UHGV virus genome: UHGV-0076293
Reading direction: 5' to 3' (one strand)
Source of the DNA: a virus
Length of the DNA stretch: 64,000 nt
A program made the translations under genes and the position numbers. The stretch's first letter is position 1, and each line of letters opens with the position of its first letter. This document shows, one piece after another, positions 1 to 46,793 of the stretch. The notes beneath the pieces were generated by a model. It did not search any database. It saw only the letters and a list, made by a program, of their open reading frames with translations, and was not told where the DNA came from.

Positions 1-2
1 CG

Positions 3-98
3 GCAGCGGCTGCGCCTACCAATAGCTTCGGTTCTTTCGGCAGCTTTGGTGCTCCTGACAATATTTCCACCACAGGCGGTGTATTCGGCGCTTTCGGC
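3..98 (+). CDS. 3' end of a gene running in from upstream (partial); C-terminus is Phe-Gly rich (...NSFGSFGSFGAPDNISTTGGVFGAFGE)
   Basis: Frame-3 open from window start to TAA at 96-98; composition matches FG-rich tail of the next gene. Confidence 0.4.
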
Positions 99-123
99 GA
101 GTAAAAATATCAAGGATTAATAA

Positions 124-1503
124 ATGAAAATTATTGAATTCTATAAATCGTTTCTTAAATCACAAGGATTCGATTTCGAGAACGATTTGCTTACCCGTGA
201 TGACGGTGAGCCAGCAGAATTTACCTACAACAAAGTGAAGCGCCGCCTGGCGCTTCCAACGTCAGCAATGATTAAGAAAGGAATGGAAGATGACGACGGA
301 CGTGAATGTCAGGCATTCCATCCTCTCTGTGAATCTGTGCTGGCCGGTGAATCGGGCACTATCCGTTTCTTGAAGAAATCCATCAATGCGAATTTGTTCA
401 TTCGTTCCTTTGCGTTGATTGATGCTATTCTGGAAACGGCTGCCAGTGGTAAAGCAATTCGTTCTGCGGCGTACAAGAAGTTCTTAACGGAACAGATTTG
501 TGAAGGGATGAAAGATCCGACGTTTGACGATCGTTTGGTAAAATCCTGGGAAGCAGTTAAACAATACGTTTATGGCTTATTGGAGCGCGATAAAAAGCAC
601 AAAGTTACCCAGCTCTTTATTGCATCTGATTTAGTTATCGACGGTGTGAAGTTTAACCGTGTGGCTAATTATCGCCATATGTTCGAAGAAGAATCCTTAG
701 ACGGTACAGCAATGTACTTCTCGGTGAAGCTTCAACGTAAACAGGATAAGGTGATTATTCATCGCCTGCTGACCACTGTGTTCGGTTGGTATCCAAGTGT
801 CACCGGTTCTAATGATTCCCGTCCGTACTTCGGGTCGTTAGCACGCGGTTGGGCACAGTACGTGGTAAACTACAATAACGTAGTGAAAGGGCTACGTGAC
901 CACACACCACTGCGTCCGTTGGACGATGAATGGATTTCACAGCTGGACAACATGGAGATTTACGATAATGTCATCCAGACCTTACCGTATAACACCGGTC
1001 CACGTTCAGACAATCCTGAGCGTGATACCAGTGCCCGTGAGTTCAGAATTGACAGATCGTCGGCAACGGAACAGATCCCGACGAAGAAGGCGTCTGATGC
1101 GGATAAGCCGAACCTGGACGATCCGGTAGAGTTCTTCCGTGCGCGTAAGCAACGGATGGCTCCAACGAACAGCTTCGGTAATCTTTCTCCAGCAATGCAG
1201 CGTTTTGTGGAAGAACACAACACAACTAACCTGGCTGGTACAGGAATGGTAGGACGGATTTCTGTAGTAGATGCTTTCGGTGGCGAGCGTAAGAACAGCG
1301 GTTTTGGTGACGTAGGTGGATTCGGACAACCGAACTCGCTGTCGAATACGTTTGGTGGTGGGCACTCTTTTGGCGGGGGTTCATCATTCGGAGGCAGTTC
1401 TTTCGGCAGCCAGCCTCAGTTTGGTTCACCTAGCGGATTTGGTAGTAGTACAAGCAACCCATTTGCCAGTGCTTCTACGAGTCCGTTTAAGAGCTCGTAC
1501 TAA
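124..1503 (+). CDS. hypothetical protein with ~70-aa Gly/Ser/Phe-rich (FG/FGG repeat) low-complexity C-terminal tail
   Basis: 459-aa ORF, ATG start; tail GFGDVGGFGQPNSLSNTFGGGHSFGGGSSFGGSSFGSQPQFGSPSGFGSS; intrinsic terminator directly downstream. Confidence 0.6.
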   Translation: MKIIEFYKSFLKSQGFDFENDLLTRDDGEPAEFTYNKVKRRLALPTSAMIKKGMEDDDGRECQAFHPLCESVLAGESGTIRFLKKSINANLFIRSFALIDAILETAASGKAIRSAAYKKFLTEQICEGMKDPTFDDRLVKSWEAVKQYVYGLLERDKKHKVTQLFIASDLVIDGVKFNRVANYRHMFEEESLDGTAMYFSVKLQRKQDKVIIHRLLTTVFGWYPSVTGSNDSRPYFGSLARGWAQYVVNYNNVVKGLRDHTPLRPLDDEWISQLDNMEIYDNVIQTLPYNTGPRSDNPERDTSAREFRIDRSSATEQIPTKKASDADKPNLDDPVEFFRARKQRMAPTNSFGNLSPAMQRFVEEHNTTNLAGTGMVGRISVVDAFGGERKNSGFGDVGGFGQPNSLSNTFGGGHSFGGGSSFGGSSFGSQPQFGSPSGFGSSTSNPFASASTSPFKSSY

Positions 1504-1513
1504 GGTAGTAAAA

Positions 1514-1541
1514 AGAAGGGACAGTGTCCCTTCTTTTTTTA
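1514..1541 (+). terminator. intrinsic terminator (agaaggga-cagtg-tcccttct + T7)
   Basis: 8-bp GC-containing stem, 5-nt loop, T-run; immediately after stop of 124-1503. Confidence 0.6.
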
Positions 1542-1896: not shown

Positions 1897-1925
1897 CTAC
1901 CGAATCAACCTAAAGGAGCATTAAA

Positions 1926-4166
1926 ATGAAAACGCCAGTTGAGCTATTGAGCAGCGTCGCTGACCGTGAAGTCAATATCGCACAGGTATCAGGTGCAAGG
2001 GCATCGATGGTAGGTAACCATATGAAGTCCTCGGTCCCGATTGACCATCCTGAGCCGTCACCTCACTTTACGGGCGCAGATACCAATTACCACGATTTTC
2101 TGTTTAACGATATTGTGGAAGACAGTGGGAGCATCTGTCATTACACAACTAAGGAAGGTAGACAACGTCGCGCAACGTTTACCCGTTATGGTCGTCGTGG
2201 GGATTCCCGTGCGCTGGAACACGCGATATTCTTCCGTCGTGCAGAATGCCGTATCCCAGGCAAAACAATGATAGACGTCATCGAGATTAACTTTTATACT
2301 AATCACGATAACGTGTTCTCTTCCGAGAAATGGGAATCACCAAAACTGCGCAGTTTGTTACGTGGTGAAACCGACCAGTTAGAAAAGGATGAAATCCTGA
2401 CGACGATGCCGTGCATGGTGGATGGTGAATTCGCAGACAGTGTGGTGCTGCCGACAGTTACCATCTCACACCCAGACATTATCGAGGATTCCTACACGAT
2501 TTCCGAAGAAGCGGCACAGAAGCTTCACGGGTATGGGTTGAAGGTTATCGAGAAAACGTTGCGTGAAGACGAATTCTTACTGGATACCTACGGTTATAAC
2601 GATCCCGAGGGAAATCGTGTACCGCGCTATTTTCCAGACGTGGGTGAAGCAATTCGTGACGACGGCTTAGTTATTGCTTCTCGTCGTTTCGATGACCTGT
2701 ACGCAGCGATTGATGCAACCTTAGGAGAAACCCAACACGTTTCTCCGTTCTTCGATAACTGTGATTACGTGGATGCCGATCCGATACACTATAAAGCACG
2801 TTTGGAAAACAACCACGAACTGATGGAGCGCAGCGGAACACGCATTGTTGATATTCAGGTTTGGCGTGATGAAACGTCATGCGGTAATGGAACGAATAAC
2901 ATTAACTGTACTGAAGAGAACAAACGTGAGCTTGACAAATACGCATTGGCGTTAAAGGACTACTACAATGCGATTGTTCGCTTCTATTTCTCCGTGTCGA
3001 GAGATAAAAACGTTATCTGGTCTCCCAAAGCGTGTGTGTTGCTGGAGAAAGCTTTTGCATCCGAAACGTACGAAGTCTACGCAGAGTTTCGTGAAGAAAT
3101 TCGCGGGGTGATTGAAGACGCAATTCGTCGCGGCGAATACGGTAAAGAGAACGTAAGTCAACAGATTATCTCCAAATTGACTTCACCTGTTCAGCGTGGA
3201 TTAAGCGATCCCATCAATACGTACACAATTCGTATCGCGGTACGTTATCCGATCCCGGTGACGGTGTCTTCTAAGATTACCGACCGTTCGGGTACGAAAG
3301 GGATTGTGGGTCGTGTACTGCCAGTTGAACAGATGCCAATTAACGAGTTCGGCGAACGTGTTCACGTACTACGTTCAATGAACGCCGTAATTCGTCGTTC
3401 TACCTACGCCGCACTGTTCCACATGTATTGGTCAGCAGCATCCGAACAGCTGAAGATGCGTCTTAAACCGATGCTGGATGAAGGACGTATTGGTGAGTGT
3501 TGGGAAATCCTGATGGACTACCTTTCACGCTATAATCCAGAATGGGCGAACACGTTACAGGCTACGCATCCTACGGAGGATTTGCAGCGAGAACTCTTTA
3601 AAGAGATTTACGATTTCACCATCCGCATTTACCTACCTCACGAACTTGATGACACTCCGGTGGAAATCAGTGAACGTTTAGGTGAGTTTAAACCCCGTAA
3701 GTCGAAACTGCTTATTACCAATTACGATGGTAAACAGGAATGGACAAAAGACGAGTTTTACGTGGGTGGTGTAGAAACATTACGGCTTGATAAAACGGGA
3801 CGTGAATTCTCAAGTATTTCGTCGATGTACCTGAACTACCTGGGCACGATCGATGCGTCTAACCAAGGACGTGGTTCGTATCCGGTAAACTATAAAACGC
3901 TAAAATGGGCTGGTCCTTCGGAAGAACGACTATTAGCGGGTTATGGTCCAGGTAACTACGAAGAGGTTCACGATAGGGCAAATAACCCTGCTGTGCATCG
4001 AGAGATTTTAGTAGGGCTGTACCGATCTCAAACTCCTTCCAATCCGGGCGTACTGGTAGACCGGAATAAACTCCCATTAGGAGATTCGCAGATTGACAGA
4101 ATGATGAAAAACATTCACAGCTGTGAAGGGTTTGAATTGGTGAAAATGAAAAGGGGCGAAGAATAA
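1926..4166 (+). CDS. rpoB: multisubunit RNA polymerase beta-subunit-like protein (C-terminal catalytic module)
   Basis: SGTKGIVGRVLPVEQMPINEFGERVHVL..RSMN aligns with bacterial beta [50 protein letters not shown]; 746 aa. Confidence 0.7.
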   Translation: MKTPVELLSSVADREVNIAQVSGARASMVGNHMKSSVPIDHPEPSPHFTGADTNYHDFLFNDIVEDSGSICHYTTKEGRQRRATFTRYGRRGDSRALEHAIFFRRAECRIPGKTMIDVIEINFYTNHDNVFSSEKWESPKLRSLLRGETDQLEKDEILTTMPCMVDGEFADSVVLPTVTISHPDIIEDSYTISEEAAQKLHGYGLKVIEKTLREDEFLLDTYGYNDPEGNRVPRYFPDVGEAIRDDGLVIASRRFDDLYAAIDATLGETQHVSPFFDNCDYVDADPIHYKARLENNHELMERSGTRIVDIQVWRDETSCGNGTNNINCTEENKRELDKYALALKDYYNAIVRFYFSVSRDKNVIWSPKACVLLEKAFASETYEVYAEFREEIRGVIEDAIRRGEYGKENVSQQIISKLTSPVQRGLSDPINTYTIRIAVRYPIPVTVSSKITDRSGTKGIVGRVLPVEQMPINEFGERVHVLRSMNAVIRRSTYAALFHMYWSAASEQLKMRLKPMLDEGRIGECWEILMDYLSRYNPEWANTLQATHPTEDLQRELFKEIYDFTIRIYLPHELDDTPVEISERLGEFKPRKSKLLITNYDGKQEWTKDEFYVGGVETLRLDKTGREFSSISSMYLNYLGTIDASNQGRGSYPVNYKTLKWAGPSEERLLAGYGPGNYEEVHDRANNPAVHREILVGLYRSQTPSNPGVLVDRNKLPLGDSQIDRMMKNIHSCEGFELVKMKRGEE

Positions 4167-6265
4167 TGAAGGCGACTCCGGTTCACGTAAGAGACTTGTG
4201 CAAGTTGAATTCGGATCAGGTGTGGCTACTTCGGGGCGTTTACGACGTGTCCTTCGACGATGGGGTCACGTTGAGAATGTCTGGTCGACACATTAAGTTG
4301 AGCTGGCCGTATTGGGGATTAACCCAGTTTTATCCCCAAGTGCCAATCTCGTCGAACATGGCGTATAAGCATGGCGACACGGCAACTGACGATGCGCATC
4401 TGCGCTTTATGTCGTTGGCAGCTGTAGCAGCACGTAAGGCCGGAGTGGATCTGGCCGATACCCGTTACCTGTTATCACAACACGTTTATGCGAATGCGTT
4501 TAACCTGACGGTGAAAAACCTGTTGTCGTATTGTGTTACCATTGACTACGATACGATGATGGAGATTTATCAGCATGAAAACTTCAAGCTGATTATCGAA
4601 TGGTCTAAACTCTATCCGACGGGTTACGATGAGGAGGGTAACGATAAGGTAGAAGAAGCCTATCAACTCATTGAGAAAATCTTTAAAGATCCGAGACTCT
4701 CAAACAACCCAGTCGTCATGTCTGTGTTAGACCGCACACTGAAAATGGATCAGATTCTCCAGGCTTACATTCGTGGTAAGACTTCAGAGATTGACTCCCG
4801 TGTGTACTCTAACCAGGTATGGGAAGGTTTCTTCACTGGCTTGCATTCTGTTATCAGTCGACTGAAAGAAGCAGGTGCGACATCGCGTTCTCACCTGTAT
4901 AACACCGACAAGATTGCAGACGCAGAGTACGCATCGCGTAAGTTGCAGTTAGCGGCTAACGTGCTGATGTTCTTCGATTACGAAGACTGTGGTACACATC
5001 ACGTACACAGACACACCTTTACGAATTCGCCGTTGGAAGAAGCGAAATTCAAAGCGATGAAAGGAATGCGTTATCGCTTCGAAGGTACTGGTGGTCCGTG
5101 GTTACGATTCGAAGATGGTGAGTTTGAGAAAGTCTTGAACAAACCTATCGAGTTCCGTACCGCGATGTGTTGCAAAGGAATGTCACGACAGACTATCTGT
5201 GCAACGTGTATGGGTGACTTGATTTATAACCTGTCGCCTGGCACGTCACCGGGTCACCTTGCGTCAACCGCAATCTCGGAAAAGGGTACTCAAGGTATTC
5301 TGTCGACGAAACACCTTGACTTCCTGCGTTATCTGCTGAACTTGGTCTTGTCGCCAAGAATGCGTGATTATCTCACGGAGTATAAGCACAACTCCGTTAA
5401 AGGGATTAGTTTACTGGAGAAGCCGCAATACGGTACCTGGGATGAATACCAACTGGTAATTTCGGATGAAGTGTATTCAGAGATTAGCCAGATTGCGTAT
5501 CATGAAGACCTGGACGATATTGATGAAACGGCACTCCCGGAAATTAATGACCTTACGTTTGTTCGTTTAGATGCAGAAGGGAATATACTGGCAGAAGATC
5601 CGATTGACGTTCGAATGGGCGTGTGCGGTAACTTCTCTAAGTCGTTCCTTCGCTTCTTCTTGAAGAATCGTGATAAGCTCGTATTCCCCAGCAAGAAAAC
5701 GGTGCGTGTTCCGCTAAAAGGATGGAAACCGTCCTGGCCGATCCTAATTTATACGAATCGGTCTGAATCTATGGCGGAGTTTGTAGCAGGGTTAGAATTG
5801 ATTTTACGTTCGGTAGCATCGGACAAGTCAGATAACTTCGAACAGTTCTCGGACGAGTCAATGCGTTTGAGCAAGAAGAGTGGTAAGGTTAAACCGATTA
5901 CCCTCGTTCAGATGCGTGGTGCCACGGAAAAACAATGTACTCATGCGTTGTTCTACGTGTTCAAATATATCCAACGTAAGCTCAAAGGGATTCCGATGAC
6001 GCACATCGCGATTATGTTGGCAATCTCTCGTGTTGAGTCACCTACTAACCCATTCCCGGCAGTAGGGTTTGACAGTGAGGATGCCGATGCCGCAGAAGGA
6101 AAACGCTTCGAAGATCACAATACACTGATTGCGATGCGTTCTGCAATCCCGATGTTGTTGTTTGAGGGACAACAGAAGAACTTGGACAACGTACGTTTCT
6201 ATACGTCACGTAAACGTCCTGCTTCGTTGTACGACAATTCTGTCGCAGCAACGATTATTGAGTAA
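4166..6265 (+). CDS. rpoC: multisubunit RNA polymerase beta-prime-like protein (C-terminal module with Zn site and trigger-loop-like motif)
   Basis: CCKGMSRQTICATC (Cx6CxxC) followed ~25 aa later by AISEKGTQGILSTKH, resembling beta-prime C888/C895/C898 and GEPGTQLTMRTFH; ATG overlaps upstream stop (ATGA). Confidence 0.6.
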   Translation: MKATPVHVRDLCKLNSDQVWLLRGVYDVSFDDGVTLRMSGRHIKLSWPYWGLTQFYPQVPISSNMAYKHGDTATDDAHLRFMSLAAVAARKAGVDLADTRYLLSQHVYANAFNLTVKNLLSYCVTIDYDTMMEIYQHENFKLIIEWSKLYPTGYDEEGNDKVEEAYQLIEKIFKDPRLSNNPVVMSVLDRTLKMDQILQAYIRGKTSEIDSRVYSNQVWEGFFTGLHSVISRLKEAGATSRSHLYNTDKIADAEYASRKLQLAANVLMFFDYEDCGTHHVHRHTFTNSPLEEAKFKAMKGMRYRFEGTGGPWLRFEDGEFEKVLNKPIEFRTAMCCKGMSRQTICATCMGDLIYNLSPGTSPGHLASTAISEKGTQGILSTKHLDFLRYLLNLVLSPRMRDYLTEYKHNSVKGISLLEKPQYGTWDEYQLVISDEVYSEISQIAYHEDLDDIDETALPEINDLTFVRLDAEGNILAEDPIDVRMGVCGNFSKSFLRFFLKNRDKLVFPSKKTVRVPLKGWKPSWPILIYTNRSESMAEFVAGLELILRSVASDKSDNFEQFSDESMRLSKKSGKVKPITLVQMRGATEKQCTHALFYVFKYIQRKLKGIPMTHIAIMLAISRVESPTNPFPAVGFDSEDADAAEGKRFEDHNTLIAMRSAIPMLLFEGQQKNLDNVRFYTSRKRPASLYDNSVAATIIE

Positions 6266-6267
6266 AC

Positions 6268-6295
6268 GAGAGGGGCCTGCGCCCCTCTTTTTTTG
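6268..6295 (+). terminator. intrinsic terminator (aggggc-ctgc-gcccct + T8)
   Basis: GC stem-loop + T-run right after stop of 4166-6265. Confidence 0.65.
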
Positions 6296-6307
6296 TAAGA
6301 GGGGAGC

Positions 6308-8017
6308 ATGTACGAATTCCACATGACCTTTACCAGCATGGGGGTGAGGGTTGAAGTCCCGTGCCGACAGATAGAGTCGGCGATACTTAAGTGGGCAGAA
6401 GAACATATGCACGCTCCTAAGATGGGCAAGCAATACGGTCGTATATTCACTGAACGTGGCGATCCGTATTACGCGCATATACCTTCTCTCCGCTCGTTTA
6501 TCTTCCACAGGAACTTTTCTGAGCGTTTACGCATTATTATTAATCGTACGGCCACCGAATTTGGCATTGAGTATAAGCTTTACGAGCATTACTTAACGCA
6601 GGGAACACCTTATCGGTGTAAGTTTGAAAACTACGGCTTTAAGATGGTGGAGGACGATGAGAATTCACGTTTCTTTTACCAGAATGCTGTGGTTGAAACG
6701 GCTTGCGAACCAAATCGTTTTCAAACCATCTTTGAAATTGGTACAGGGATGGGTAAGTCGAAAACGAACATGAAAGTAATGGTACGTAAGGGTGTCAGGA
6801 CGCTACTGATTCACCGTCCGACGTACATCTCAAAATGGTTGTTTGATTTAACTGAAGACCCAACGGGTTTACGTGAGTCGAAAGATGATGTTTTGGTTAT
6901 CCAAGGCGTTCAGGCTATCTACGAAGCGTTAGAGATGGGGGAATCAGGCGAATTAGACAAACGTGGGATTAAGGTTATCATTATCTCGACGGTAACGTTG
7001 CAACGATTCCTTAAAGAGTACATTAACACTGCCGCAACTAACCCAGTGAACATTGATGATTTCTACAACACCTTAGGCGTTGGGTTCTTGTCAATGGATG
7101 AAGTGCATGAGCATTTTCATCTGGTGTACATGGCAGGAATAATGCTCAACCCACCACCGTCTGTTGAGATGTCTGCGACGTTACAGCCAGGTGAATCAAA
7201 AGCGTTTTTAGCCGAACGGTATCGAGAGCGTTTTCCACAAGAGTCACGTATATTCATTCCGATTATTCCTGCTGTACACGTTAAAGCGTTGTACTACAGC
7301 ATTGAGAATAAACGGTTTGCGTGGTGGGCGAATAAGATGACGCCGTATAACCACAAGCTATTCGAAGGTAAGTTAATAAGTGAGAACATGCACTTATCTT
7401 ACGCGGATATGGTGTGGGACGTCATCGAGCGAACGTATCTGGCGAGTTACCAGCCTGGTCAGAAAGTGCTGGTGTTGTTTGCAACCGTTGCGATGTGTGA
7501 GTTCTTTACAGAGTACGTGCGAGAGAAACTGGCACAGTCTGATAAGTTCCACGCGCTGATGGTTGCGAAATACAACGCGGGGGATTCGTATGACGACTTT
7601 ATTCAAGCGGATTTCTCGATTTCAACACCAGGGAAAGCAGGCACTGCGGTTGACAAACCGGGGTTGGTCCACATGTACATCACAACGCCTGTGGAAGACC
7701 AGCAGTTAAACCGTCAGATGGCCGGTCGCCCGCGTAAGATACTTCACAACGATTGGGGTGAACTCGATCCCGTTGTGTGGTTATTCCATTCACTCTCGAT
7801 AGGGAAACACTGTAATTACTTGAATGCGCGTCAAAAGTCGCTTAGTGATTCTGTGTTGTCGTTTAAGATAGCTTCTTCACCGTATGTTGTAAGGAAAACC
7901 AATGTTACTACCGCCGCAGCCGACCGAGCCAACAGCACCGTATGCCGGGCTGAACTTAGCAAGTTTTCTCGAAAAGGTTTTAAAGGCATACCCAGACGTC
8001 GAAAACGTCGTCGATAA
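6308..8017 (+). CDS. putative SF2 (DExH-type) helicase; frame ends in a polybasic tail (GIPRRRKRRR)
   Basis: Walker A-like GTGMGKSKT and DEVHEH (DExH) Walker B; 569-aa ORF; last ~116 nt overlap the next gene. Confidence 0.55.
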   Translation: MYEFHMTFTSMGVRVEVPCRQIESAILKWAEEHMHAPKMGKQYGRIFTERGDPYYAHIPSLRSFIFHRNFSERLRIIINRTATEFGIEYKLYEHYLTQGTPYRCKFENYGFKMVEDDENSRFFYQNAVVETACEPNRFQTIFEIGTGMGKSKTNMKVMVRKGVRTLLIHRPTYISKWLFDLTEDPTGLRESKDDVLVIQGVQAIYEALEMGESGELDKRGIKVIIISTVTLQRFLKEYINTAATNPVNIDDFYNTLGVGFLSMDEVHEHFHLVYMAGIMLNPPPSVEMSATLQPGESKAFLAERYRERFPQESRIFIPIIPAVHVKALYYSIENKRFAWWANKMTPYNHKLFEGKLISENMHLSYADMVWDVIERTYLASYQPGQKVLVLFATVAMCEFFTEYVREKLAQSDKFHALMVAKYNAGDSYDDFIQADFSISTPGKAGTAVDKPGLVHMYITTPVEDQQLNRQMAGRPRKILHNDWGELDPVVWLFHSLSIGKHCNYLNARQKSLSDSVLSFKIASSPYVVRKTNVTTAAADRANSTVCRAELSKFSRKGFKGIPRRRKRRR

Positions 8018-11384: not shown

Positions 11385-12236
11385 ATGATTGACATTTATA
11401 CAGATTACGCCGCCGTTCTTACCGTCAATCGTTCGGAGGAACGTGCTGCACCGTTTCTGGATTTAGTCACGCTTTGCATGGACTACGGATACGACGTTGC
11501 GTTAAGTGATGTATACTGGCAACCGTCTTCTGACCCGGCAGACGAAACGGTTCGATTAGAAGGCATTATCGTTAAGTGTGCGGTAGCGTTAGGTAACCGT
11601 CTAGGGATAGCGTTAAATCCCCAGGAAGTTTACCATAAACCCAAAGAAACCGTACGTATTCTGGACGGTATTACTTCCAAGTTTGAAGAGTTTGAAGACA
11701 CCGATACGCTTTATGGTATTGTGATGTCGGGCGAGACGCCGGAATACATTCTGGAAAGTATCTGTCGTTACGTTTACGGTGATGACAATATTCATTTCGA
11801 AGATTTGGTTGTTCGGGTGTCTCCTCGTGTAATGACAGTGATGAGGAACTACCTGTCTTCTGTGACCGTAGACGAACAATTAGCGGCAGGTAACGACAGA
11901 CGTTTGTCACGTATCGCTGATTACCTTCGTTTATATCCTCAAAACCCATCAGCGTTCGTATTCCTTAACTTACCAGACCTGCCTGATTTGACCGTGGTTC
12001 AGCAGTCGCTGGTCTTCGATGTTGAAGACTACACGGAAGCCGAGCTGTTGGAAATGTATGCAGTGGGCTTATCGATTATCGATAACGAGGATTACGAAGA
12101 TGCGTATAGTGCGTTATCAGAGAACTTGGAGAAGCTCAACAACGAAGGGTTAAAACCTATTCCTATCTTGCAACCTGCTCTGGAAAGCTTGAAGGAGATT
12201 TATAAGGTAGCGGAGGAAGATAATGACGAGATTTGA
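11385..12236 (+). CDS. hypothetical protein
   Basis: ORF; first ATG at 11385 (ORF track begins at TTG 11349); acidic C-terminus. Confidence 0.45.
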   Translation: MIDIYTDYAAVLTVNRSEERAAPFLDLVTLCMDYGYDVALSDVYWQPSSDPADETVRLEGIIVKCAVALGNRLGIALNPQEVYHKPKETVRILDGITSKFEEFEDTDTLYGIVMSGETPEYILESICRYVYGDDNIHFEDLVVRVSPRVMTVMRNYLSSVTVDEQLAAGNDRRLSRIADYLRLYPQNPSAFVFLNLPDLPDLTVVQQSLVFDVEDYTEAELLEMYAVGLSIIDNEDYEDAYSALSENLEKLNNEGLKPIPILQPALESLKEIYKVAEEDNDEI

Positions 12237-13524
12237 GTTTCTGGTGGCGGCTTGTAAAGCTGAAGCCTGGCGTCGTTTAGTGTGGCGTATTGCAATATTC
12301 AACATGTCAGTGTTCCCGTCGAAACGTGAAGAACCTGAAGCGTTCGATATTACGTATATTGACGGAATGCCGCACTATTACGCGGTAGAAGATGGGAAAG
12401 GTGATTGGCAGCCCATTACTGATGGCGTGAAAGACCAAGAACTGTTTATTCCCGAAGAACAGTTCGAATTGAAAGTCGATGACTACCCAGGATTAGAAGG
12501 GCCGATTCCTACCACTGTGGGACGTTATATCTTTAACTGGATTGTTATCTGGTATGCGTTTGGTACTCGCTTACCGTATATGGGCGTTTCACAAAACCCA
12601 TTAGAGTATCGTAAAGAGATGCACCGTCGTTGTTTGGATCACGAGACCGATGAACCTGAGAACGAAGGTGCTATTCGTCCGAGCATGATAGAACGCTTTG
12701 TAAGCGGCTTACACGAACTTGCACCGTTAACCGCTGGTATTGCACCAACAGGTACACTTAGAAGCCTTACGGTGCATCCTGATGCGTATAAAATACGTGA
12801 TGCGTTGCTGTTAAAGCATAAGGACGAGTTAGACGACCCAGCAGTGATTGTTAAGATAGAAAAAGCACTGGACGAACTGGATAAACAGTGGTTGTCAGGT
12901 GACCAATCTATCGAGTTCTATAACTCGCCGAAATCACGAATGCGTCGACGTAAGTTGATGTTGATGTACGGGATTGAATCATCTTTCCAGGAAGGGGGTA
13001 ACTATACGTTAATTCCTAACGCACTGGTGGAAGTTGATAAGGCGGGAATGGATAATCTGGTCGCGAAGTTTAACTCTATTCGTGAAGGCTCGTTCTCGCG
13101 TGGTGCAGAAACCGCGAAAGGTGGGGAACAGGTACGTATCATCCAGATGATTTTCCAGAACCACCGAATCGTTGCAGGTGACTGTGGGACGAAACTCACG
13201 CACCCTGTGGTTATCACAAAAGACAACGTAAAACGTTACGTTGGGATGAACGCGATGGTTAATGGGAAGTTAACCTCCCTGACGGAAGAGTTTCTGAATA
13301 GTCAGCTAGGGAAAGTTGTGCGCCTACGCCGACCCATCTTATGTCAATACGGCCACATCGACTGCTGTACTGCGTGCTCCTCCGAAGCGAAAGGTGAAGA
13401 ACCTCGCGCTATCGCGGCGGATATTTCGTCAGCGTTCTCTAACGTTATGTCCGTGGCAATGGCCGCAATGCACGGTAAAGAAACCGTCGTTCAAGAATAC
13501 GATCCGTTGATCCATATCACCTAA
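12223..13524 (+). CDS. hypothetical protein (433 aa)
   Basis: ORF overlapping upstream gene end by 14 nt (translational coupling). Confidence 0.5.
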   Translation: MTRFEFLVAACKAEAWRRLVWRIAIFNMSVFPSKREEPEAFDITYIDGMPHYYAVEDGKGDWQPITDGVKDQELFIPEEQFELKVDDYPGLEGPIPTTVGRYIFNWIVIWYAFGTRLPYMGVSQNPLEYRKEMHRRCLDHETDEPENEGAIRPSMIERFVSGLHELAPLTAGIAPTGTLRSLTVHPDAYKIRDALLLKHKDELDDPAVIVKIEKALDELDKQWLSGDQSIEFYNSPKSRMRRRKLMLMYGIESSFQEGGNYTLIPNALVEVDKAGMDNLVAKFNSIREGSFSRGAETAKGGEQVRIIQMIFQNHRIVAGDCGTKLTHPVVITKDNVKRYVGMNAMVNGKLTSLTEEFLNSQLGKVVRLRRPILCQYGHIDCCTACSSEAKGEEPRAIAADISSAFSNVMSVAMAAMHGKETVVQEYDPLIHIT

Positions 13525-14049: not shown

Positions 14050-14098
14050 GCTTTACCCTACTCCTCTCGGGAGTAGGGTAGCTTTTATTTTTTCTTAG
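14050..14098 (+). repeat. conserved ~45-nt terminator element, copy 1 (ccctactcc-tctcg-ggagtaggg-tagcttttattttttcttag)
   Basis: Near-identical copy at 19417-19465, differing only in loop bases; both between convergent genes. Confidence 0.7.
14056..14094 (+). terminator. intrinsic terminator within repeat copy 1
   Basis: 9-bp stem, 5-nt loop, T-rich tract. Confidence 0.65.
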
Positions 14099-15876
14099 TG
14101 AGTGGTTTTGATGTATTCAAACGGATCGGTAACGGCTTCTCCCTGACGACGTAAGAATGCTTCTAACACAACGTTCTTATCTGGCAGTAAGAAGAAGTCC
14201 GTTGCGATTTCCATTGCATTAACACGCCCTGCGGTAAGGTTAATCCCTACACGACGTCGTACTTCTTCAGGAACACCATGAATGCTCAGCAACTCGATTA
14301 ACGTTGTTTCACGAGACTGGTTCATCATGTTCGTTGCAGAAGGATACGCCTGGGTTAAGTCCGCATCTGCGGTTTGCCCACGGAATGCAGTGTAGAAATC
14401 ATCAAACTCTTTAATGATTCCTCGCAGACCGTTTTCCGCGTTCATACACGCAGTTAACGTAACAATCCAACCGTCCGTACCGATAACTTCTTCATCGAAA
14501 TCATTACGCATTGCACTGCCTACACAACCGATAACCAACCCTTGTTCATAAAGGTAATAGGTGTAAGCAATACAAATACGTTTTGGTAACGAAGGGAAGA
14601 TATCGTACATCGAATAACCCGCCAGTACGGAAATTGCCGAAGACAAGTCGTTCGTTTTTTTATCCAACAACACAATCATCAGGTTATCGAAGATGTTATA
14701 AACGCAGTATTCGAGCGGGAACTCTTTCTGTGCTTTTAAGTGCCATTCCAGTTTCTCCTCGTAAGGCAGTTCTGGCAAGTCTAACTTGTTTAAGCCCAGT
14801 TCAGTTTCCAGAATAGCGTTAAGTTTGTAAGAAGGACGTTGGCCTTCGTGAACACGCAGTGAACGAAACAGACACATTGCATCCACACAGTAGAACGATG
14901 CGGTACAATAAAGTACGTGCCACTGTTGTGAAGGTGCTTTGGTCAGTGATTTCGATTCCGTTTTCTTCGATGCTTCGTCTTTCTTGAAGTAAACACGACG
15001 GTATTGCTTCGGTACATCAGGATGACAAAAGACGTCTTCCGGTGGAATCCCTGCGGCTTCTAGCGCTTCTAACATACGTGAAATATCGAACTCGTGGTTC
15101 CATGCAACTAATAAGTCAGGTAGCCGAGGGTGAATCTCTTCAAACATGCGTTGAATACAGCAGCCAGAGTTTAAGCATTCGTAAACGAAGATTTTATATC
15201 CGGCAATAACGTCTTTGATTTCAGTATTAGGATTACCTTCTTTGTCTTTGCCACGAAAAGCAATTTTAGAAAGTAACTCCTTCGCACGTTTAATTAGTCG
15301 CGCTTCGAAGTTCTCACGACCACAACGCGTAACGTAGTCTTTCGTTGCGAAGAAATGAATTTCGTCATCCAAAACAAAACTCATAATCCAAGGGTCTCGA
15401 GATTTGTCTTCTTCTCGAGTTTCCACGTCGTATACACAAATACGGTTAGGTGAAACAGCGTTAGGCCATTTCTTTACATACCTTTCTTTAATCCAGCTGG
15501 TGATAGGTAAGTCAGCCCAGTAAACGTACGGAGAGGTACAGACTTGACGTAATGAACGTTTTTTGTCAGGAAATCTTGCCCCTAGACCCATTTGAATGGT
15601 TTGTGACATCATCACATCCGTGGTCATGTATTCCTGACACTTACTGCGTTCTTCGTATTCTTTCTTTTCTTGATGGTTACGGTGTTGTGGTAAAGTAATG
15701 TAGATAGGCCGTTTCAGATTTTCACGCATGACGATACGCGGGATGAATCTGCCATCTTTAGTATGGACGACCTCCTTTATGAGCACGAAGTCGTTTTCTT
15801 TCTGCTGATCGGTTGCGTACGAAACAAATTTGCACTCTTTGGCAATAACGTCTTCCGGTGCGTAATAGTTATTCAT
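14095..15876 (-). CDS. DnaQ-like 3'-5' exonuclease-domain protein, possibly the exonuclease part of a split family-B DNA polymerase
   Basis: Exo I-like VYDVETRE (DxE), Exo II-like AWNHEFDISRML, Exo III-like YCVYNIFD; start ambiguous (ATG at 15876 or 15975, TTG at 15990; the latter two overlap the divergent gene). Confidence 0.5.
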   Translation of the reverse strand: MNNYYAPEDVIAKECKFVSYATDQQKENDFVLIKEVVHTKDGRFIPRIVMRENLKRPIYITLPQHRNHQEKKEYEERSKCQEYMTTDVMMSQTIQMGLGARFPDKKRSLRQVCTSPYVYWADLPITSWIKERYVKKWPNAVSPNRICVYDVETREEDKSRDPWIMSFVLDDEIHFFATKDYVTRCGRENFEARLIKRAKELLSKIAFRGKDKEGNPNTEIKDVIAGYKIFVYECLNSGCCIQRMFEEIHPRLPDLLVAWNHEFDISRMLEALEAAGIPPEDVFCHPDVPKQYRRVYFKKDEASKKTESKSLTKAPSQQWHVLYCTASFYCVDAMCLFRSLRVHEGQRPSYKLNAILETELGLNKLDLPELPYEEKLEWHLKAQKEFPLEYCVYNIFDNLMIVLLDKKTNDLSSAISVLAGYSMYDIFPSLPKRICIAYTYYLYEQGLVIGCVGSAMRNDFDEEVIGTDGWIVTLTACMNAENGLRGIIKEFDDFYTAFRGQTADADLTQAYPSATNMMNQSRETTLIELLSIHGVPEEVRRRVGINLTAGRVNAMEIATDFFLLPDKNVVLEAFLRRQGEAVTDPFEYIKTTH

Positions 15877-15947
15877 GTTTTCACTCTCAAATCTAGCGGC
15901 TGCTATACTGATTTGTGGGTAATGTAATTTCTCAAAAGGAATCACAA

Positions 15948-17282
15948 ATGGGATATTGGCAAAATCACATTGCATCAGTTGCGGATGCAAAGGTTGTAGC
16001 CGCAGAATCGATTAAATTCCAAGATAAAAAGAAACTCGCAGAACTGGCAGACATTATTGCTAAATTTCGTGCAGCCGGAGACTTTAGTCCGGCCGGTTAC
16101 GAGAGTTCTGGTGTTTCTGATTGGGTATTTAAAACCAACGGTATTAGCATTAACTTTAAGAACGGTAGCGAACTCGGATTATTCGACGTTGCCTTCGCGG
16201 GTGTAGAACCGCCTAAACTGGACGCGAATAGTCCGGTAATTGCGTCAATGGCGCGTGCACTGTACGCAGGTAATAAAGACCTGGACATGTACAGTAAGTT
16301 TATTAAAGAAAACGAACTGAACAGCAGCATTGACGATTCCAGTGCGAAAATCAGCGGTGACTTGAGCAAAGTCAGTTCTCCGCTTTACCTGACTCCGGTG
16401 CTGTTGGGGAAACTGGAGCTCACCGATTTGGAGGTTGCTTCGGTAATCCTTCATGAAGTCGGTCACATTTATTATTACTTCCGTACGCTGATGCGTACCG
16501 TGGTAACGGATTTACTGGCAGACGCTGCGGCTAACCGAATCATGGAAAGCGAAGACCCAGCTGTTCGTTTACGTGTGGTTAAAGACGTTGAACGAATGCT
16601 GAACACGAAAGTGAATCAGCCAGAGACCATCTGCACTGAGTACAAGAAAGAAAACGTCTACATGCACCTGGTAACAGATTTGCTGTTAGACCGTCCGTTC
16701 ATTAGCGGTAGTCAAGGCTTTGCAAACCGTACCTGGGAACGTGCTGCTGACGACTTCGCTGCCCGCTTTGGTGCTGCCCCGTACTTAGCTTCTGCACTGT
16801 ACAAAATGGAAACCAGCCCGTTCTATCTACTGCGTAACTCGTCGTATATGAACATGGGTGTCCATTTGACGATTGAGTTGTTCCGTGTGACTGCGCTGAT
16901 TGCCCAAGCTGCCATTCCGATTCTTCCGGTTATCTCTGTTACGTTTGGGATGATTCTGAACGACCCAGATAACACCATCTACGATCCGCCGCAGGAACGT
17001 TTTGAAGCGATGCGCCGTACGCTGGTAGAAGAACTGAATACCATCAAAGACAAAAACACGAAAGCGGCTAACGAGCAACGTAAACGTATTCTGGATGGTA
17101 TCGCGGTAATTGATCGAATTCTACTCACGGTTAAAGACAAAGATAACCTGTATCAGTTTATCTGGAAGACGCTGACACCGAAAGGGCGTCGTGACCGTGC
17201 TGCGGTGGATTATCAGCGCGCTATCGGGAAGTATATGTCGAATGACCTCCGTATCGCATCTGCCATGTTTAACGTCGATTAA
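15948..17282 (+). CDS. putative zinc metallopeptidase (HExxH)
   Basis: VILHEVGHIYYYF zincin-like motif; ATG with AAGGAA RBS. Confidence 0.45.
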   Translation: MGYWQNHIASVADAKVVAAESIKFQDKKKLAELADIIAKFRAAGDFSPAGYESSGVSDWVFKTNGISINFKNGSELGLFDVAFAGVEPPKLDANSPVIASMARALYAGNKDLDMYSKFIKENELNSSIDDSSAKISGDLSKVSSPLYLTPVLLGKLELTDLEVASVILHEVGHIYYYFRTLMRTVVTDLLADAAANRIMESEDPAVRLRVVKDVERMLNTKVNQPETICTEYKKENVYMHLVTDLLLDRPFISGSQGFANRTWERAADDFAARFGAAPYLASALYKMETSPFYLLRNSSYMNMGVHLTIELFRVTALIAQAAIPILPVISVTFGMILNDPDNTIYDPPQERFEAMRRTLVEELNTIKDKNTKAANEQRKRILDGIAVIDRILLTVKDKDNLYQFIWKTLTPKGRRDRAAVDYQRAIGKYMSNDLRIASAMFNVD

Positions 17283-45017: not shown

Positions 45018-46793
45018 GTGTTTAAAGATGCAATCAGAAAGCTTAAAGAGGATGGCAAAATAGTACCCTTTAACCGAGCGATTGCGGAAGGTGTCGGTTA
45101 TACCCAGGCCAAAGATGGTATACACGAACGTGTTCAGATTATCTTGAAACGTGAGCTGGATTATCATCCTGTTGATAATCCGCGTGTTCCTGAAGGGCTG
45201 GCTGTATTAGGTGTACGGTTAATGTCGCCGTTTGAAACGTTCATCTATAAGCTGTCTCGTTCTGAGAGCAGCAGAATGGATAGACGCCGTGGTGTGATGT
45301 CCATTGCGAACACCGATGCGTATATGGTCATGTCAACATTCCGTATTCCAGGAGATTCTCGACCGATCTCAAGACCGATTAACTTACCCTTTATCCGTCG
45401 TGGTGGTTTAATGAACTATTACGGTACGACGTATCACGTTGCGCCGGTTATTCACCAGCCAGGTATCTGTCGCGAACACGGTGGGGTATTTGTTAACTTT
45501 GACTTTAAACGTAAAGCCTCGTTGAAATTCTGTAAGCAACCTGTCCGTGTGTTAGTCAACGGTAAAAAAGAGGAGCTATTCTTACCAGGAACCAAAAACC
45601 TGTTCAAAGCGAAGAACGCAACACATCCCGATACTGACGAGAAACCGTTAATGTATTGGTTGTTCGGACGTTACGGATTTAAAGAAGCGATTAAACGCTA
45701 TACTGGTGTTGACGTAGAAATTTATCCATCGTTTAAGATCCCAGAACTCGATCTCAACGAGAAAGTTGTAATCAGTTCCGGTGAATCGAAATATAACCGT
45801 TCGATAATGTACGCGGTTGTCGTACCCGCAGAAGCATTGCCGAACGTGGATAAAGTCGGTTGGGATCAAAACGAGCATTTATTGCTGGCTGCAATTGCTG
45901 CGTTCTTCAAAGCTGCTCACTACTATTGCAGTAAACAATCTATTAAGAACGGTAACGTCACACCGCTGCCGCCGCTGTTTACCGCAATTAACGAGTTAGC
46001 GATGGAAGACGATATTGCTAATCTGAACTCTGCTCCGATTTGGCGTGAGATTCTGGGAAGAAGTATCGTAGGACTGAAACCTTCCGATATTGAGTTAGCG
46101 CACAGTATGGCGAAACACTATACTGAATGTGATCGCTATGTTAACTCAACGTTCCGTGCAGAACTGAAGATGACCGATCCCGACATTCCAGACGATATGG
46201 ATATGTTTGATTTCTTCTGGTATGCAACGAAACTGATGGTACGTACCCGTTTGACCAAACAGGGCGACATTCCGTCGATGTACGGAAAACGTTTAACCGT
46301 AACTGACTACTTACTGTTAGGTGACCGTGGGTTTACACCAACGGTAGCGGCTATTCGTTTCCAGCTGGGACAAACGGAGAACCGTTCGCCGGAATCCTGC
46401 GCGAATATGATTCGTAGCGCACTCAATAAAGAAATTGTCACGAGTCTGGTACTGCGTAATATCACCGGTAATGGCGGTGTAAGTTATTTTAACGCATCAA
46501 CAGAATCCATGGTGTTAGGAGTATCCACACACGCGATCAGTCAAACTGAAACGGAATCTAAACGCAACAGCAAGGGCGGTAAAACGGTTAACCTTAACGA
46601 CCGTACGAAACACGCTTCTGCATCGCATCTGGAGTGCGGTAACGTTTATTATATTCCGAAATCGTCCCCGTTCAAATGGGGTGTCCTTAACCCGTATATG
46701 AAAACTAACCGTCAGTTAGTGATGGTTCGTAATCCAAAACTTGACGAGTTAATCCAAGCAACTGAAGAAGACATTGCGAAGATTGGCCGTTAA
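45018..46793 (+). CDS. hypothetical protein (591 aa), GTG start
   Basis: TAAGGAG RBS 7 nt upstream of GTG. Confidence 0.5.
   Translation: MFKDAIRKLKEDGKIVPFNRAIAEGVGYTQAKDGIHERVQIILKRELDYHPVDNPRVPEGLAVLGVRLMSPFETFIYKLSRSESSRMDRRRGVMSIANTDAYMVMSTFRIPGDSRPISRPINLPFIRRGGLMNYYGTTYHVAPVIHQPGICREHGGVFVNFDFKRKASLKFCKQPVRVLVNGKKEELFLPGTKNLFKAKNATHPDTDEKPLMYWLFGRYGFKEAIKRYTGVDVEIYPSFKIPELDLNEKVVISSGESKYNRSIMYAVVVPAEALPNVDKVGWDQNEHLLLAAIAAFFKAAHYYCSKQSIKNGNVTPLPPLFTAINELAMEDDIANLNSAPIWREILGRSIVGLKPSDIELAHSMAKHYTECDRYVNSTFRAELKMTDPDIPDDMDMFDFFWYATKLMVRTRLTKQGDIPSMYGKRLTVTDYLLLGDRGFTPTVAAIRFQLGQTENRSPESCANMIRSALNKEIVTSLVLRNITGNGGVSYFNASTESMVLGVSTHAISQTETESKRNSKGGKTVNLNDRTKHASASHLECGNVYYIPKSSPFKWGVLNPYMKTNRQLVMVRNPKLDELIQATEEDIAKIGR

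What the first reader, a model, noticed from the sequence alone, without database searches (positions are those of the whole stretch)
1926..6265. Adjacent split genes for beta-like and beta-prime-like C-terminal modules of a multisubunit RNA polymerase
ORF 1926-4166 carries the beta-subunit active-site-proximal motif (GxKG..P.EQMP..E.G..V.L...SMN). ORF 4166-6265 carries a beta-prime-like Cx6CxxC zinc site followed by a trigger-loop-like S.EKGTQ....T.H motif. The genes are translationally coupled (ATGA). Split, highly divergent msRNAP subunits are the hallmark of phiKZ-like jumbo phages that transcribe independently of the host; the N-terminal modules and any fifth subunit must lie outside these two ORFs.
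Basis: partly seen in the sequence, partly recalled or inferred. Interest (0 to 1): 0.55.

Follow-up and report, generated by a model that had tools for sequence, protein, structure and literature searches.

The report
Jumbo-phage non-virion RNA polymerase subunit genes

Summary
ORFs 1926-4166 (746 aa) and 4166-6265 (699 aa) exist as stated and carry the described motifs. Two details need correcting. The junction is TAATG, a 1-nt overlap, not an ATGA overlap. The zinc site is C275 plus CC-x8-C-xx-C, not Cx6CxxC.

The two proteins are orthologues of phiKZ gp71-73 (PDB 7OGP_C, E 1e-30) and gp74 (7OGP_D, E 7e-33). These are the beta-C and beta'-C subunits of the non-virion RNA polymerase (nvRNAP), not of the virion enzyme. 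An AlphaFold model of ORF2 matches gp74, then the AR9 nvRNAP, then bacterial beta'.

The other subunits were located. Beta-N (gp123-like) lies inside the window at 45018-46793. The gp68-like fifth subunit and beta'-N lie just left of the window in near-identical relatives. In those relatives beta'-N is split inside NA|DFDGD by a 350-nt group I intron. A virion-set paralogue (gp80-like) lies at 12223-13524.

The host element is a ~222 kb jumbo phage. It is filed as a "plasmid" or as "hypothetical proteins" in many Salmonella, E. coli, Shigella and Enterobacter assemblies. This is a new, unannotated member of a well-known kind. Interest is low.

The parts
1912..1918 (+). Shine-Dalgarno-like AAAGGAG, 7 nt upstream of the ORF1 ATG. 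It lies in the 63-nt intergenic region 1863-1925, which must also hold the promoter of the ORF1-ORF2 unit. The promoter itself was not identified.
   Evidence: Read directly from the sequence. The intergenic region is identical in relative L006, 0 differences in 63 nt. That conservation is not statistically significant on its own.
1926..4166 (+). Gene for the nvRNAP beta C-terminal subunit (746 aa), the orthologue of phiKZ gp71-73. It is uninterrupted here.
   Evidence: phrog_3295 E 1e-254. Pfam Rpb2_6 25.3 bits, above the gathering score of 23.4. 7OGP_C E 1e-30, AR9 7S00_C E 4e-16, bacterial beta chains E ~1e-5. 58 synonymous and 0 non-synonymous differences against L006.
2484..2507 (+). EDSYTISE (aa 187-194), the counterpart of the conserved beta 'NFEDSILVSE' segment of the beta double-psi beta-barrel region.
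   Evidence: Position. It aligns with 'iedgfvan' in gp71-73 and 'ledaivise' in AR9. The E. coli motif is quoted from my own knowledge.
3270..3383 (+). Active-site-proximal beta motif S-K450-ITDRSGT-K458-G...EQMP...SMN. The two lysines are spaced 8 residues apart, like phiKZ K386/K394.
   Evidence: The role of the phiKZ lysines comes from PMC8287921. In phiKZ this site is split by the gp72 intron at HGG|KG. Here it is intact.
4151..4168 (+). Junction between the two genes: AAGGGG Shine-Dalgarno-like element, ORF1 stop TAA (4164-4166) and ORF2 start ATG (4166-4168), with a 1-nt TAATG overlap.
   Evidence: Read directly from the sequence.
4166..6265 (+). Gene for the nvRNAP beta' C-terminal subunit (699 aa), the orthologue of phiKZ gp74.
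   Evidence: phrog_3015 E 8e-222. 7OGP_D E 7e-33, AR9 7S00_D E 6e-4. AlphaFold2 model with pLDDT 78.8. Foldseek hits: 8QUE_D 2.4e-33, 7S01_D 4e-18, bacterial beta' about 1e-11. 44 synonymous and 3 non-synonymous differences against L006.
4928..4996 (+). C-terminal end of the bridge helix (YASRKLQL, aa 255-262) leading into DCGT (aa 274-277, first zinc-ligand cysteine C275).
   Evidence: A251, E254, R258, K259, Q261, L262, D274 and C275 are invariant or at least 90% conserved. This segment aligns with the region of gp74 that holds the bridge helix L242-Y279.
5168..5209 (+). Zinc-finger cysteines CCKGMSRQTICATC (C336-x8-C345-x2-C348).
   Evidence: The gp74 zinc finger is described in PMC8287921.
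5276..5314 (+). Trigger-loop/helix segment SEKGTQGILSTKH (aa 371-383).
   Evidence: Q376, I378 and L379-D385 are at least 90% conserved. The model predicts a long helix 362-392 whose tip has low confidence.
6268..6296 (+). Intrinsic-terminator-like hairpin with a 9-bp stem (6 G-C pairs) and a T run, starting 3 nt after the ORF2 stop. This is the likely end of the bicistronic unit.
   Evidence: It is identical in L006. This is a consensus match only. Its function is inferred.
45018..46793 (+). Gene for the nvRNAP beta N-terminal subunit (591 aa, GTG start), the orthologue of phiKZ gp123. It sits just after the major head protein gene, as in phiKZ.
   Evidence: phrog_2943 E 1e-170. 7OGP_E E 9.7e-18. 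Synteny with phiKZ gp120-gp123.

Best explanation
ORF1 and ORF2 encode the beta-C (gp71-73-like) and beta'-C (gp74-like) subunits of the non-virion multisubunit RNA polymerase of a roughly 222 kb phiKZ-related (Erskinevirus/Seoulvirus-like) enterobacterial jumbo phage.

The inferred mechanism follows phiKZ. The two genes form a bicistronic, probably translationally coupled unit that ends at a hairpin terminator. They are expected to be expressed early, by the injected virion RNAP. Their products assemble with beta-N (window 45018-46793), beta'-N (carrying DFDGD) and a gp68-like sigma-like fifth subunit, both encoded just left of the window. The result is a five-subunit, alpha- and omega-less enzyme.

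ORF1 contributes one double-psi beta-barrel with the two conserved lysines, plus the flap and clamp parts. ORF2 contributes the bridge helix, the trigger loop and a zinc finger. The enzyme then transcribes late (and possibly middle) phage genes independently of host RNAP.

Shown here: orthology, motif conservation, fold, presence of all five subunit genes in the lineage, and purifying selection. Inferred: expression timing, complex assembly, promoter class, and independence from the host.
For: PHROG RNAP families at E 1e-254 and 8e-222.
Pfam Rpb2_6 above its gathering score.
phmmer hits to the solved phiKZ nvRNAP chains gp71-73 (E 1e-30) and gp74 (E 7e-33), to the AR9 nvRNAP chains, and for ORF1 to about 50 bacterial beta chains over residues 429-516.
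The ORF2 AlphaFold2 model has pLDDT 78.8. Its best Foldseek hits are gp74 (2.4e-33), the AR9 beta'-C chain (4e-18) and bacterial beta' (about 1e-11, probability 1.00).
Gene order is the same as in phiKZ: gp70-like, beta-C, beta'-C, helicase ... gp79/gp80-like.
The remaining subunits were found: the gp123 homologue in the window, the gp68 homologue (E 7e-10) and the gp55 homologue (E 3e-39). The DFDGD motif of the gp55 homologue is restored by splicing out a group I intron (Rfam 63.7 bits). The spliced product is colinear with SPN3US gp243.
There are 102 synonymous against 3 non-synonymous differences across the two genes compared with a relative about 2.5% divergent.
Subunit roles are taken from PMC8287921 and PMC4666361.
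Against: There is no direct biochemical or expression evidence for this phage.
ORF2's direct sequence link to cellular beta' is weak (Pfam Rpb1_5 E 0.13). It rests on transitive homology through gp74 and on a predicted structure.
The beta'-N and gp68-like genes were seen only in relatives that are 97-98% identical, not in the window itself.
No promoter was identified, and sigma-70-like sites are no more frequent than in shuffled sequence.
The catalytic beta'-N gene needs intron splicing, which was not demonstrated.
Confidence: 0.95

Rival explanations
1. The two ORFs are subunits of the virion-packaged RNAP (vRNAP), which is injected with the DNA to transcribe early genes, rather than of the non-virion enzyme.
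For: Both enzyme sets are split beta/beta' homologues, and PHROG labels all of them 'RNA polymerase beta subunit'. ORF2 shares the Zn-motif region weakly with gp80 (E 0.002).
Against: The best matches are the nvRNAP chains gp71-73 and gp74. ORF1 against the vRNAP subunit gp178 is not significant (E 0.065). A distinct gp80 orthologue (E 2e-47) is encoded at 12223-13524. The locus is syntenic with the phiKZ gp68-gp75 early locus.
Confidence: 0.02
2. The genes are decayed or non-functional RNAP relics, or have been exapted for a non-polymerase role, carried on a plasmid-like element.
For: The element is deposited as a non-mobilizable 'plasmid', and the genes are named 'hypothetical protein' in hundreds of bacterial assemblies. 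Divergence from cellular RNAP is very high.
Against: All catalytic and structural motifs are intact and conserved across 39 homologues down to about 20% identity. The synonymous to non-synonymous ratio is 102:3. The complete five-gene set is present in the lineage. The element encodes a major head protein, internal head proteins, a head protease and DNA polymerases, so it is a phage genome.
Confidence: 0.02
3. The motif matches are chance similarities in unrelated large proteins.
For: Pairwise identity to phiKZ is only about 20%. Pfam Rpb1_5 is not significant for ORF2.
Against: E-values of 1e-30 and 7e-33 to solved RNAP chains over more than 500 residues. Foldseek probability 1.00 to more than 200 RNAP chains. 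PHROG E-values below 1e-220.
Confidence: 0.005

Closest known systems
phiKZ non-virion RNA polymerase (gp55, gp68, gp71-73, gp74, gp123; PDB 7OGP, 7OGR, 8QUE, 9RJS)
   Same: Same five-gene set and the same split points. Local gene order is the same: gp70-like, beta-C, beta'-C, helicase. The beta lysines, bridge helix, Zn finger and trigger loop are conserved. DFDGD is carried on the separate beta'-N subunit. A gp68-like fifth subunit is present.
   Different: Only about 17-24% identity in structural alignments, and 27% for beta'-N. The beta-C gene is uninterrupted here, whereas phiKZ has the gp72 HNH intron inside HGG|KG. In relatives of this phage the beta'-N intron is a 350-nt intron with no endonuclease gene, whereas in phiKZ an HNH gene (gp56) follows gp55. 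The host range is Enterobacteriaceae rather than Pseudomonas.
RNAP subunit genes of Erwinia phages Stratton/phiEaH2 (Erskinevirus) and Salmonella phage SPN3US (Seoulvirus)
   Same: Closest sequenced phages. The gene pair gp49/gp50 of Stratton has the same lengths and the same abutting arrangement, and is already annotated 'putative DNA-directed RNA polymerase beta subunit'. ORF2 homologues show 64-67% amino-acid identity.
   Different: Only about 71.5% nucleotide identity, so this is a distinct lineage that is absent from the phage-isolate collection. SPN3US beta'-N (gp243) has no intron.
Bacillus phage AR9 non-virion RNAP (PDB 7S00, 7S01, 7UM0)
   Same: Split beta/beta' architecture. ORF1 and ORF2 hit AR9 chains C and D (E 4e-16 and 6e-4 by sequence, 4e-18 by fold).
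   Different: Much more distant. AR9 uses gp226 to recognise deoxyuridine-containing template-strand promoters (PMC9209446). No evidence for such a subunit or for uracil-DNA was sought or seen here.
Bacterial RNAP beta (RpoB) and beta' (RpoC)
   Same: ORF1 residues 429-516 align with the region of beta that holds the active-site lysines (E about 1e-5; Pfam Rpb2_6). The ORF2 fold matches the C-terminal half of beta' (E about 1e-11).
   Different: Each subunit is split into two genes. There are no alpha or omega subunits. Sequence identity is about 12-14%. Sigma is replaced by an integral gp68-like subunit.

Membership tests
phiKZ-type non-virion multisubunit RNAP (nvRNAP) | A beta C-terminal subunit orthologous to gp71-73, with the DPBB lysine pair | tested here: met
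   7OGP_C E 1e-30. K450 and K458 have the same 8-residue spacing as K386/K394. phrog_3295 E 1e-254.
phiKZ-type non-virion multisubunit RNAP (nvRNAP) | A beta' C-terminal subunit orthologous to gp74, with bridge helix, trigger loop and Zn finger | tested here: met
   7OGP_D E 7e-33. Foldseek 8QUE_D 2.4e-33. Conserved YASRKL, DCGT, CCx8CxxC and SEKGTQ....T.H.
phiKZ-type non-virion multisubunit RNAP (nvRNAP) | A beta N-terminal subunit (gp123-like) | tested here: met
   Window 45018-46793 against 7OGP_E, E 9.7e-18. phrog_2943.
phiKZ-type non-virion multisubunit RNAP (nvRNAP) | A beta' N-terminal subunit (gp55-like) carrying the catalytic DFDGD | tested here: met
   Not in the window. In relatives 97-98% identical to the window: L010 40192-41559 plus 41910-42149, E 3e-39 against gp55. 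DFDGD is present in exon 2, and also at L006:62. The spliced product is colinear with SPN3US gp243.
phiKZ-type non-virion multisubunit RNAP (nvRNAP) | A gp68-like fifth (sigma-like) subunit | tested here: met
   Not in the window. L006 4813-6441 (equivalent to window -3262..-1634) against 7OGP_B, E 7e-10. phrog_3209.
phiKZ-type non-virion multisubunit RNAP (nvRNAP) | Subunits are early-gene products and are absent from virions | not testable with these tools
   Requires transcriptomics and virion proteomics. Supported only by orthology and synteny with the phiKZ early locus.
phiKZ-type non-virion multisubunit RNAP (nvRNAP) | Rifampicin-resistant transcription from late phage promoters by the five-subunit complex | not testable with these tools
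   This is a biochemical property (PMC4666361).
phiKZ-type virion RNAP (vRNAP: gp178, gp149, gp180, gp80) | Orthology of ORF1 and ORF2 to the virion-set polypeptides | tested here: not met
   ORF1 against gp178, E 0.065. ORF2 against gp80, E 0.002 over 50 residues only. The true gp80 orthologue is window 12223-13524.
Cellular bacterial RpoB/RpoC | Full-length single-polypeptide beta and beta' with the complete Pfam domain series | tested here: not met
   Only Rpb2_6 passes for ORF1. Rpb1_5 is sub-threshold for ORF2. The subunits are split across four genes.

The most novel reading that the evidence does not exclude
In this lineage the nvRNAP genes sit in a conserved block with two proteins that carry nucleoporin-like FG-repeat disordered tails. 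One is the gp70 homologue at window 124-1503. The other is the positional counterpart of the import factor Imp1/gp69, whose gene ends at about window 100. In addition, the catalytic beta'-N gene must be spliced. The unexcluded novel reading has two parts. First, FG-tail proteins may form or gate a selective permeability barrier for nvRNAP import into a phage nucleus. Second, splicing of the catalytic subunit may throttle late transcription. Either could contribute to the persistent, plasmid-like carriage of this jumbo phage in enterobacterial isolates.
Probability: 0.05. Interest if true: 0.7.

Novelty: new member of a known kind. Interest (0 to 1): 0.15.

Why it matters
Scientifically it adds little. 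Split nvRNAPs of phiKZ-like phages are structurally and biochemically characterised, and close relatives are already annotated as RNAP subunits.

The practical value is in annotation. These exact proteins occur in more than 200 public Salmonella, E. coli, Shigella and Enterobacter assemblies and metagenomes. There they are labelled 'hypothetical protein', on contigs sometimes filed as plasmids. Recognising them as nvRNAP subunits flags those contigs as genomes of a host-transcription-independent jumbo phage. Such phages are of current interest as 'persistent' virulent phages in bacterial isolates.

Tried and rejected
- A local phmmer comparison against phiKZ failed because loci L002-L005 were not exported to the sandbox. 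Protein comparison was used instead.
- The gp180 (vRNAP) candidate L010:3361-4818 showed no BLASTP similarity to phiKZ gp180 (E 0.68). Apart from the gp80 orthologue, the rest of the virion set was not located.
- The positional chimallin candidate (L010:38265-40103) had no significant match to phiKZ gp54 or to any solved chimallin. It is 55% identical to the SPN3US protein at the equivalent locus. That accession differs from the one a preprint cites as SPN3US chimallin, so nucleus formation remains an inference from position and literature.
- The positional Imp1/gp69 counterpart showed no BLASTP similarity to phiKZ gp69 (E 0.99).
- The upstream ORF 124-1503 was considered as the fifth subunit and rejected. 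It has no PDB hit and is homologous to gp70, not gp68.
- Rfam found no structured RNA or intron in the window at gathering thresholds.
- Sigma-70 promoter-like sites around the genes are no more frequent than in shuffled sequence.
- Twenty further mid-size window ORFs were scanned and contained no additional RNAP modules.
- One 2026 preprint on nvRNAP import could not be opened.


Full report
OBSERVATION. The ORF listing confirms two abutting + strand ORFs at exactly the stated coordinates: 1926-4166 (746 aa) and 4166-6265 (699 aa). ORF1 contains S449-K-ITDRSGT-K-G459, then EQMP (468-471) and SMN (484-486). It also contains an upstream EDSYTISE (187-194). ORF2 contains YASRKLQL (255-262), DCGT (274-277), CCKGMSRQTICATC (335-348) and SEKGTQGILSTKH (371-383). 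Two details in the finding are inexact. First, the junction reads GAA TAA TG. The stop is TAA at 4164-4166 and the start is ATG at 4166-4168, so this is a 1-nt TAATG overlap and not an ATGA overlap. An AAGGGG Shine-Dalgarno-like element lies 9 nt upstream. Second, the cysteine spacing is C336-x8-C345-x2-C348, not Cx6CxxC. The probable fourth ligand is C275.

IDENTITY. Pfam gives RNA_pol_Rpb2_6 for ORF1, at 25.3 bits against a gathering score of 23.4. For ORF2 it gives only a sub-threshold Rpb1_5 match (E 0.13). PHROGs places ORF1 in phrog_3295 (E 1e-254) and ORF2 in phrog_3015 (E 8e-222). Both families are annotated 'RNA polymerase beta subunit'. Against all PDB sequences, ORF1's best hit is chain C of 7OGP, which is phiKZ gp71-73 (E 1e-30). 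Next come chain C of the AR9 nvRNAP (E 4e-16) and about 50 bacterial beta subunits over residues 429-516 (E 1e-5 and weaker). ORF2's best hit is 7OGP chain D, phiKZ gp74 (E 7e-33, residues 7-556), followed by AR9 chain D (E 6e-4).

I collected 47 homologues and aligned 39 of them. C275, C336, C345, C348 and the trigger-loop residues Q376-D385 are at least 90% conserved in that alignment. AlphaFold2 gave a model with mean pLDDT 78.8. Foldseek against the PDB returned phiKZ gp74 (8QUE_D, 2.4e-33), AR9 beta'-C (7S01_D, 4e-18) and then more than 200 bacterial beta' chains (about 1e-11, probability 1.00).

According to the cryo-EM paper on the phiKZ nvRNAP, gp71-73 carries a DPBB with the two conserved lysines K386/K394. 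The same paper shows that gp74 carries the bridge helix, trigger helix and a Zn finger (PMC8287921). The window proteins conserve each of these elements.

NON-VIRION VERSUS VIRION SET. phiKZ-like phages encode two split RNAPs (PMC4666361). ORF1 and ORF2 are not significantly similar to the virion subunits gp178 and gp80. A separate window ORF, 12223-13524 (phrog_2962), is the gp80 orthologue (27% identity, E 2e-47). Gene order matches the phiKZ gp68-gp80 region: a gp70 homologue (window 124-1503, E 1e-13), then beta-C, beta'-C, a helicase, and later gp79/gp80 equivalents. The focal genes therefore belong to the non-virion enzyme.

THE OTHER SUBUNITS. Beta-N lies inside the window at 45018-46793. 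It belongs to phrog_2943 and hits 7OGP_E, phiKZ gp123, at E 1e-17. As in phiKZ, it sits just downstream of the major head protein gene. No other RNAP module was found among 45 window ORFs scanned.

The exact ORF1 protein occurs on contigs of about 220-226 kb. One of these, L006, is colinear with the window, with L006 position equal to window position plus 8075, and is about 3% divergent. On L006 the gene at 4813-6441, equivalent to window -3262..-1634, is the gp68 homologue (7OGP_B, E 7e-10).

In the complete record NZ_CP134650.1 (98.6% identical over the focal genes), the gene after the chimallin-position gene is the gp55 homologue (E 3e-39). Its reading frame ends ...IKAPNA and then runs into non-homologous sequence. 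DFDGDQLQV... resumes 350 nt downstream. Rfam identifies the intervening sequence as a group I intron (RF00028, 63.7 bits, E 9e-16). Exon 1 ends in U and the intron ends in G. The conceptually spliced 535-aa protein aligns without gaps across the junction with the uninterrupted SPN3US gp243 (67% identity).

phiKZ shows the same pattern. Its annotated gp55 stops at KAPN, and the structure paper places DFDGD at 417-421. Its gp71/gp73 exons are split inside HGG|KG. In the window ORF1 is intact at that site, and Rfam finds no intron anywhere in the window. Group I introns in chimallivirus RNAP genes are an established phenomenon (PMC11620839).

FUNCTIONAL STATE AND EXPRESSION UNIT. Between the window and L006, ORF1 has 58 synonymous and 0 non-synonymous codon differences. 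ORF2 has 44 synonymous and 3 non-synonymous. This indicates strong purifying selection. A GC-rich 9-bp hairpin followed by a T run starts 3 nt after the ORF2 stop (6268-6296). A bidirectional hairpin at 1515-1533 separates the gp70-like gene from the small minus-strand ORF 1539-1862. ORF1 and ORF2 therefore most likely form a bicistronic unit driven from the 63-nt intergenic region 1863-1925, which includes an AAAGGAG ribosome-binding site. No promoter could be assigned, and sigma-70-type matches are at background level. That is expected if the genes are read by the phage's virion RNAP.

MECHANISM (inferred by orthology). The virion RNAP transcribes these early genes. Beta-C, beta'-C, beta-N, spliced beta'-N and the gp68-like subunit then assemble into a five-subunit enzyme without alpha or omega. 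In that enzyme gp68 occupies the sigma position and is needed for promoter binding (PMC8287921). The enzyme transcribes late genes independently of host RNAP (PMC4666361).

CONTEXT. The nearest phage isolates are Erwinia phages Stratton and phiEaH2 (Erskinevirus), at only about 71.5% nucleotide identity. The exact proteins, however, are present in clusters of 181-310 sequences from Salmonella, E. coli, Shigella and Enterobacter assemblies and from metagenomes. Nearly all are named 'hypothetical protein'. In complete genomes the element is filed as a roughly 222 kb plasmid. The occurrence of such jumbo phages in isolate assemblies has been described (bioRxiv 10.1101/2024.12.31.630880; PMC12768965).

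VERDICT. The genes are new, unannotated members of a well-characterised enzyme family. Interest is low. The side observations are the FG-rich tails on the neighbouring proteins, the intron in the catalytic motif, and the plasmid-like carriage of the phage. These are more unusual than the RNAP genes themselves, but they lie outside the finding and are only partly explored.

Noticed in passing
window 124-1503 (+), and window 1-102 (frame 3; end of the upstream gene, equivalent to L006:6475-8178): Both proteins encoded just upstream of the nvRNAP pair end in FG/GS-rich low-complexity tails. The gp70 homologue has 9 FG dipeptides in its last ~76 residues (...FGGGHSFGGGSSFGGSSFGSQPQFGSPSGFGSS...). 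The upstream protein ends NSFGSFGSFGAPDNISTTGGVFGAFGE. In Erwinia phage Stratton the equivalent tails are GGL repeats, and phiKZ gp70 has a Q/M/P/N-rich tail. The upstream protein occupies the position of the import factor Imp1/gp69, but BLASTP against phiKZ gp69 is not significant. The resemblance to nucleoporin FG repeats is untested.
   Followed up: partly
window 12223-13524 (+): Orthologue of phiKZ gp80, a beta'-like subunit of the virion-packaged RNAP (27% identity, E 2e-47; phrog_2962). The window therefore holds parts of both phage RNAPs.
   Followed up: yes
L010 (NZ_CP134650.1) 41560-41909; exon 2 also at L006:62-301 (about window -8013..-7774): A 350-nt group I intron without a homing endonuclease gene interrupts the nvRNAP beta'-N gene exactly within the catalytic NA|DFDGD motif (Rfam RF00028, 63.7 bits). 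The orthologue in SPN3US is uninterrupted.
   Followed up: yes
whole window; NZ_CP173450.1 and NZ_CP134650.1: The window belongs to a roughly 222 kb jumbo phage genome that is deposited as a circular, non-mobilizable 'plasmid' in complete E. coli and Enterobacter ludwigii genomes. It also occurs on 220-226 kb contigs in many Salmonella and Shigella assemblies and metagenomes, and is absent from the phage-isolate collection. This is consistent with published 'persistent virulent phage' reports.
   Followed up: partly
window 1515-1533 (both strands): A perfect 8-bp hairpin (GAAGGGAC-AGT-GTCCCTTC) flanked by an A run and a T run, lying between the convergent gp70-like gene and the minus-strand ORF 1539-1862. 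It looks like a bidirectional terminator. The terminator scan did not list it, probably because the A/T runs extend the stem.
   Followed up: no
window 26437-27708, 27785-29047 and 60277-61410 (+): Three paralogous internal head protein genes (phrog_2497), matching the phiKZ gp92-96 paralogue family.
   Followed up: no
window 14095-15990 (-) and L010 34577-36874: Two separate DNA polymerase genes, as in phiKZ gp50 and gp82. The window copy belongs to phrog_3011 and lies on the minus strand.
   Followed up: no
L010 38265-40103 (outside the window, about 10 kb to the left): The gene in the chimallin position, between the DNA polymerase and beta'-N genes, has no detectable sequence similarity to phiKZ gp54 or to any solved chimallin. 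It is 55% identical to the SPN3US protein at the same locus.
   Followed up: partly
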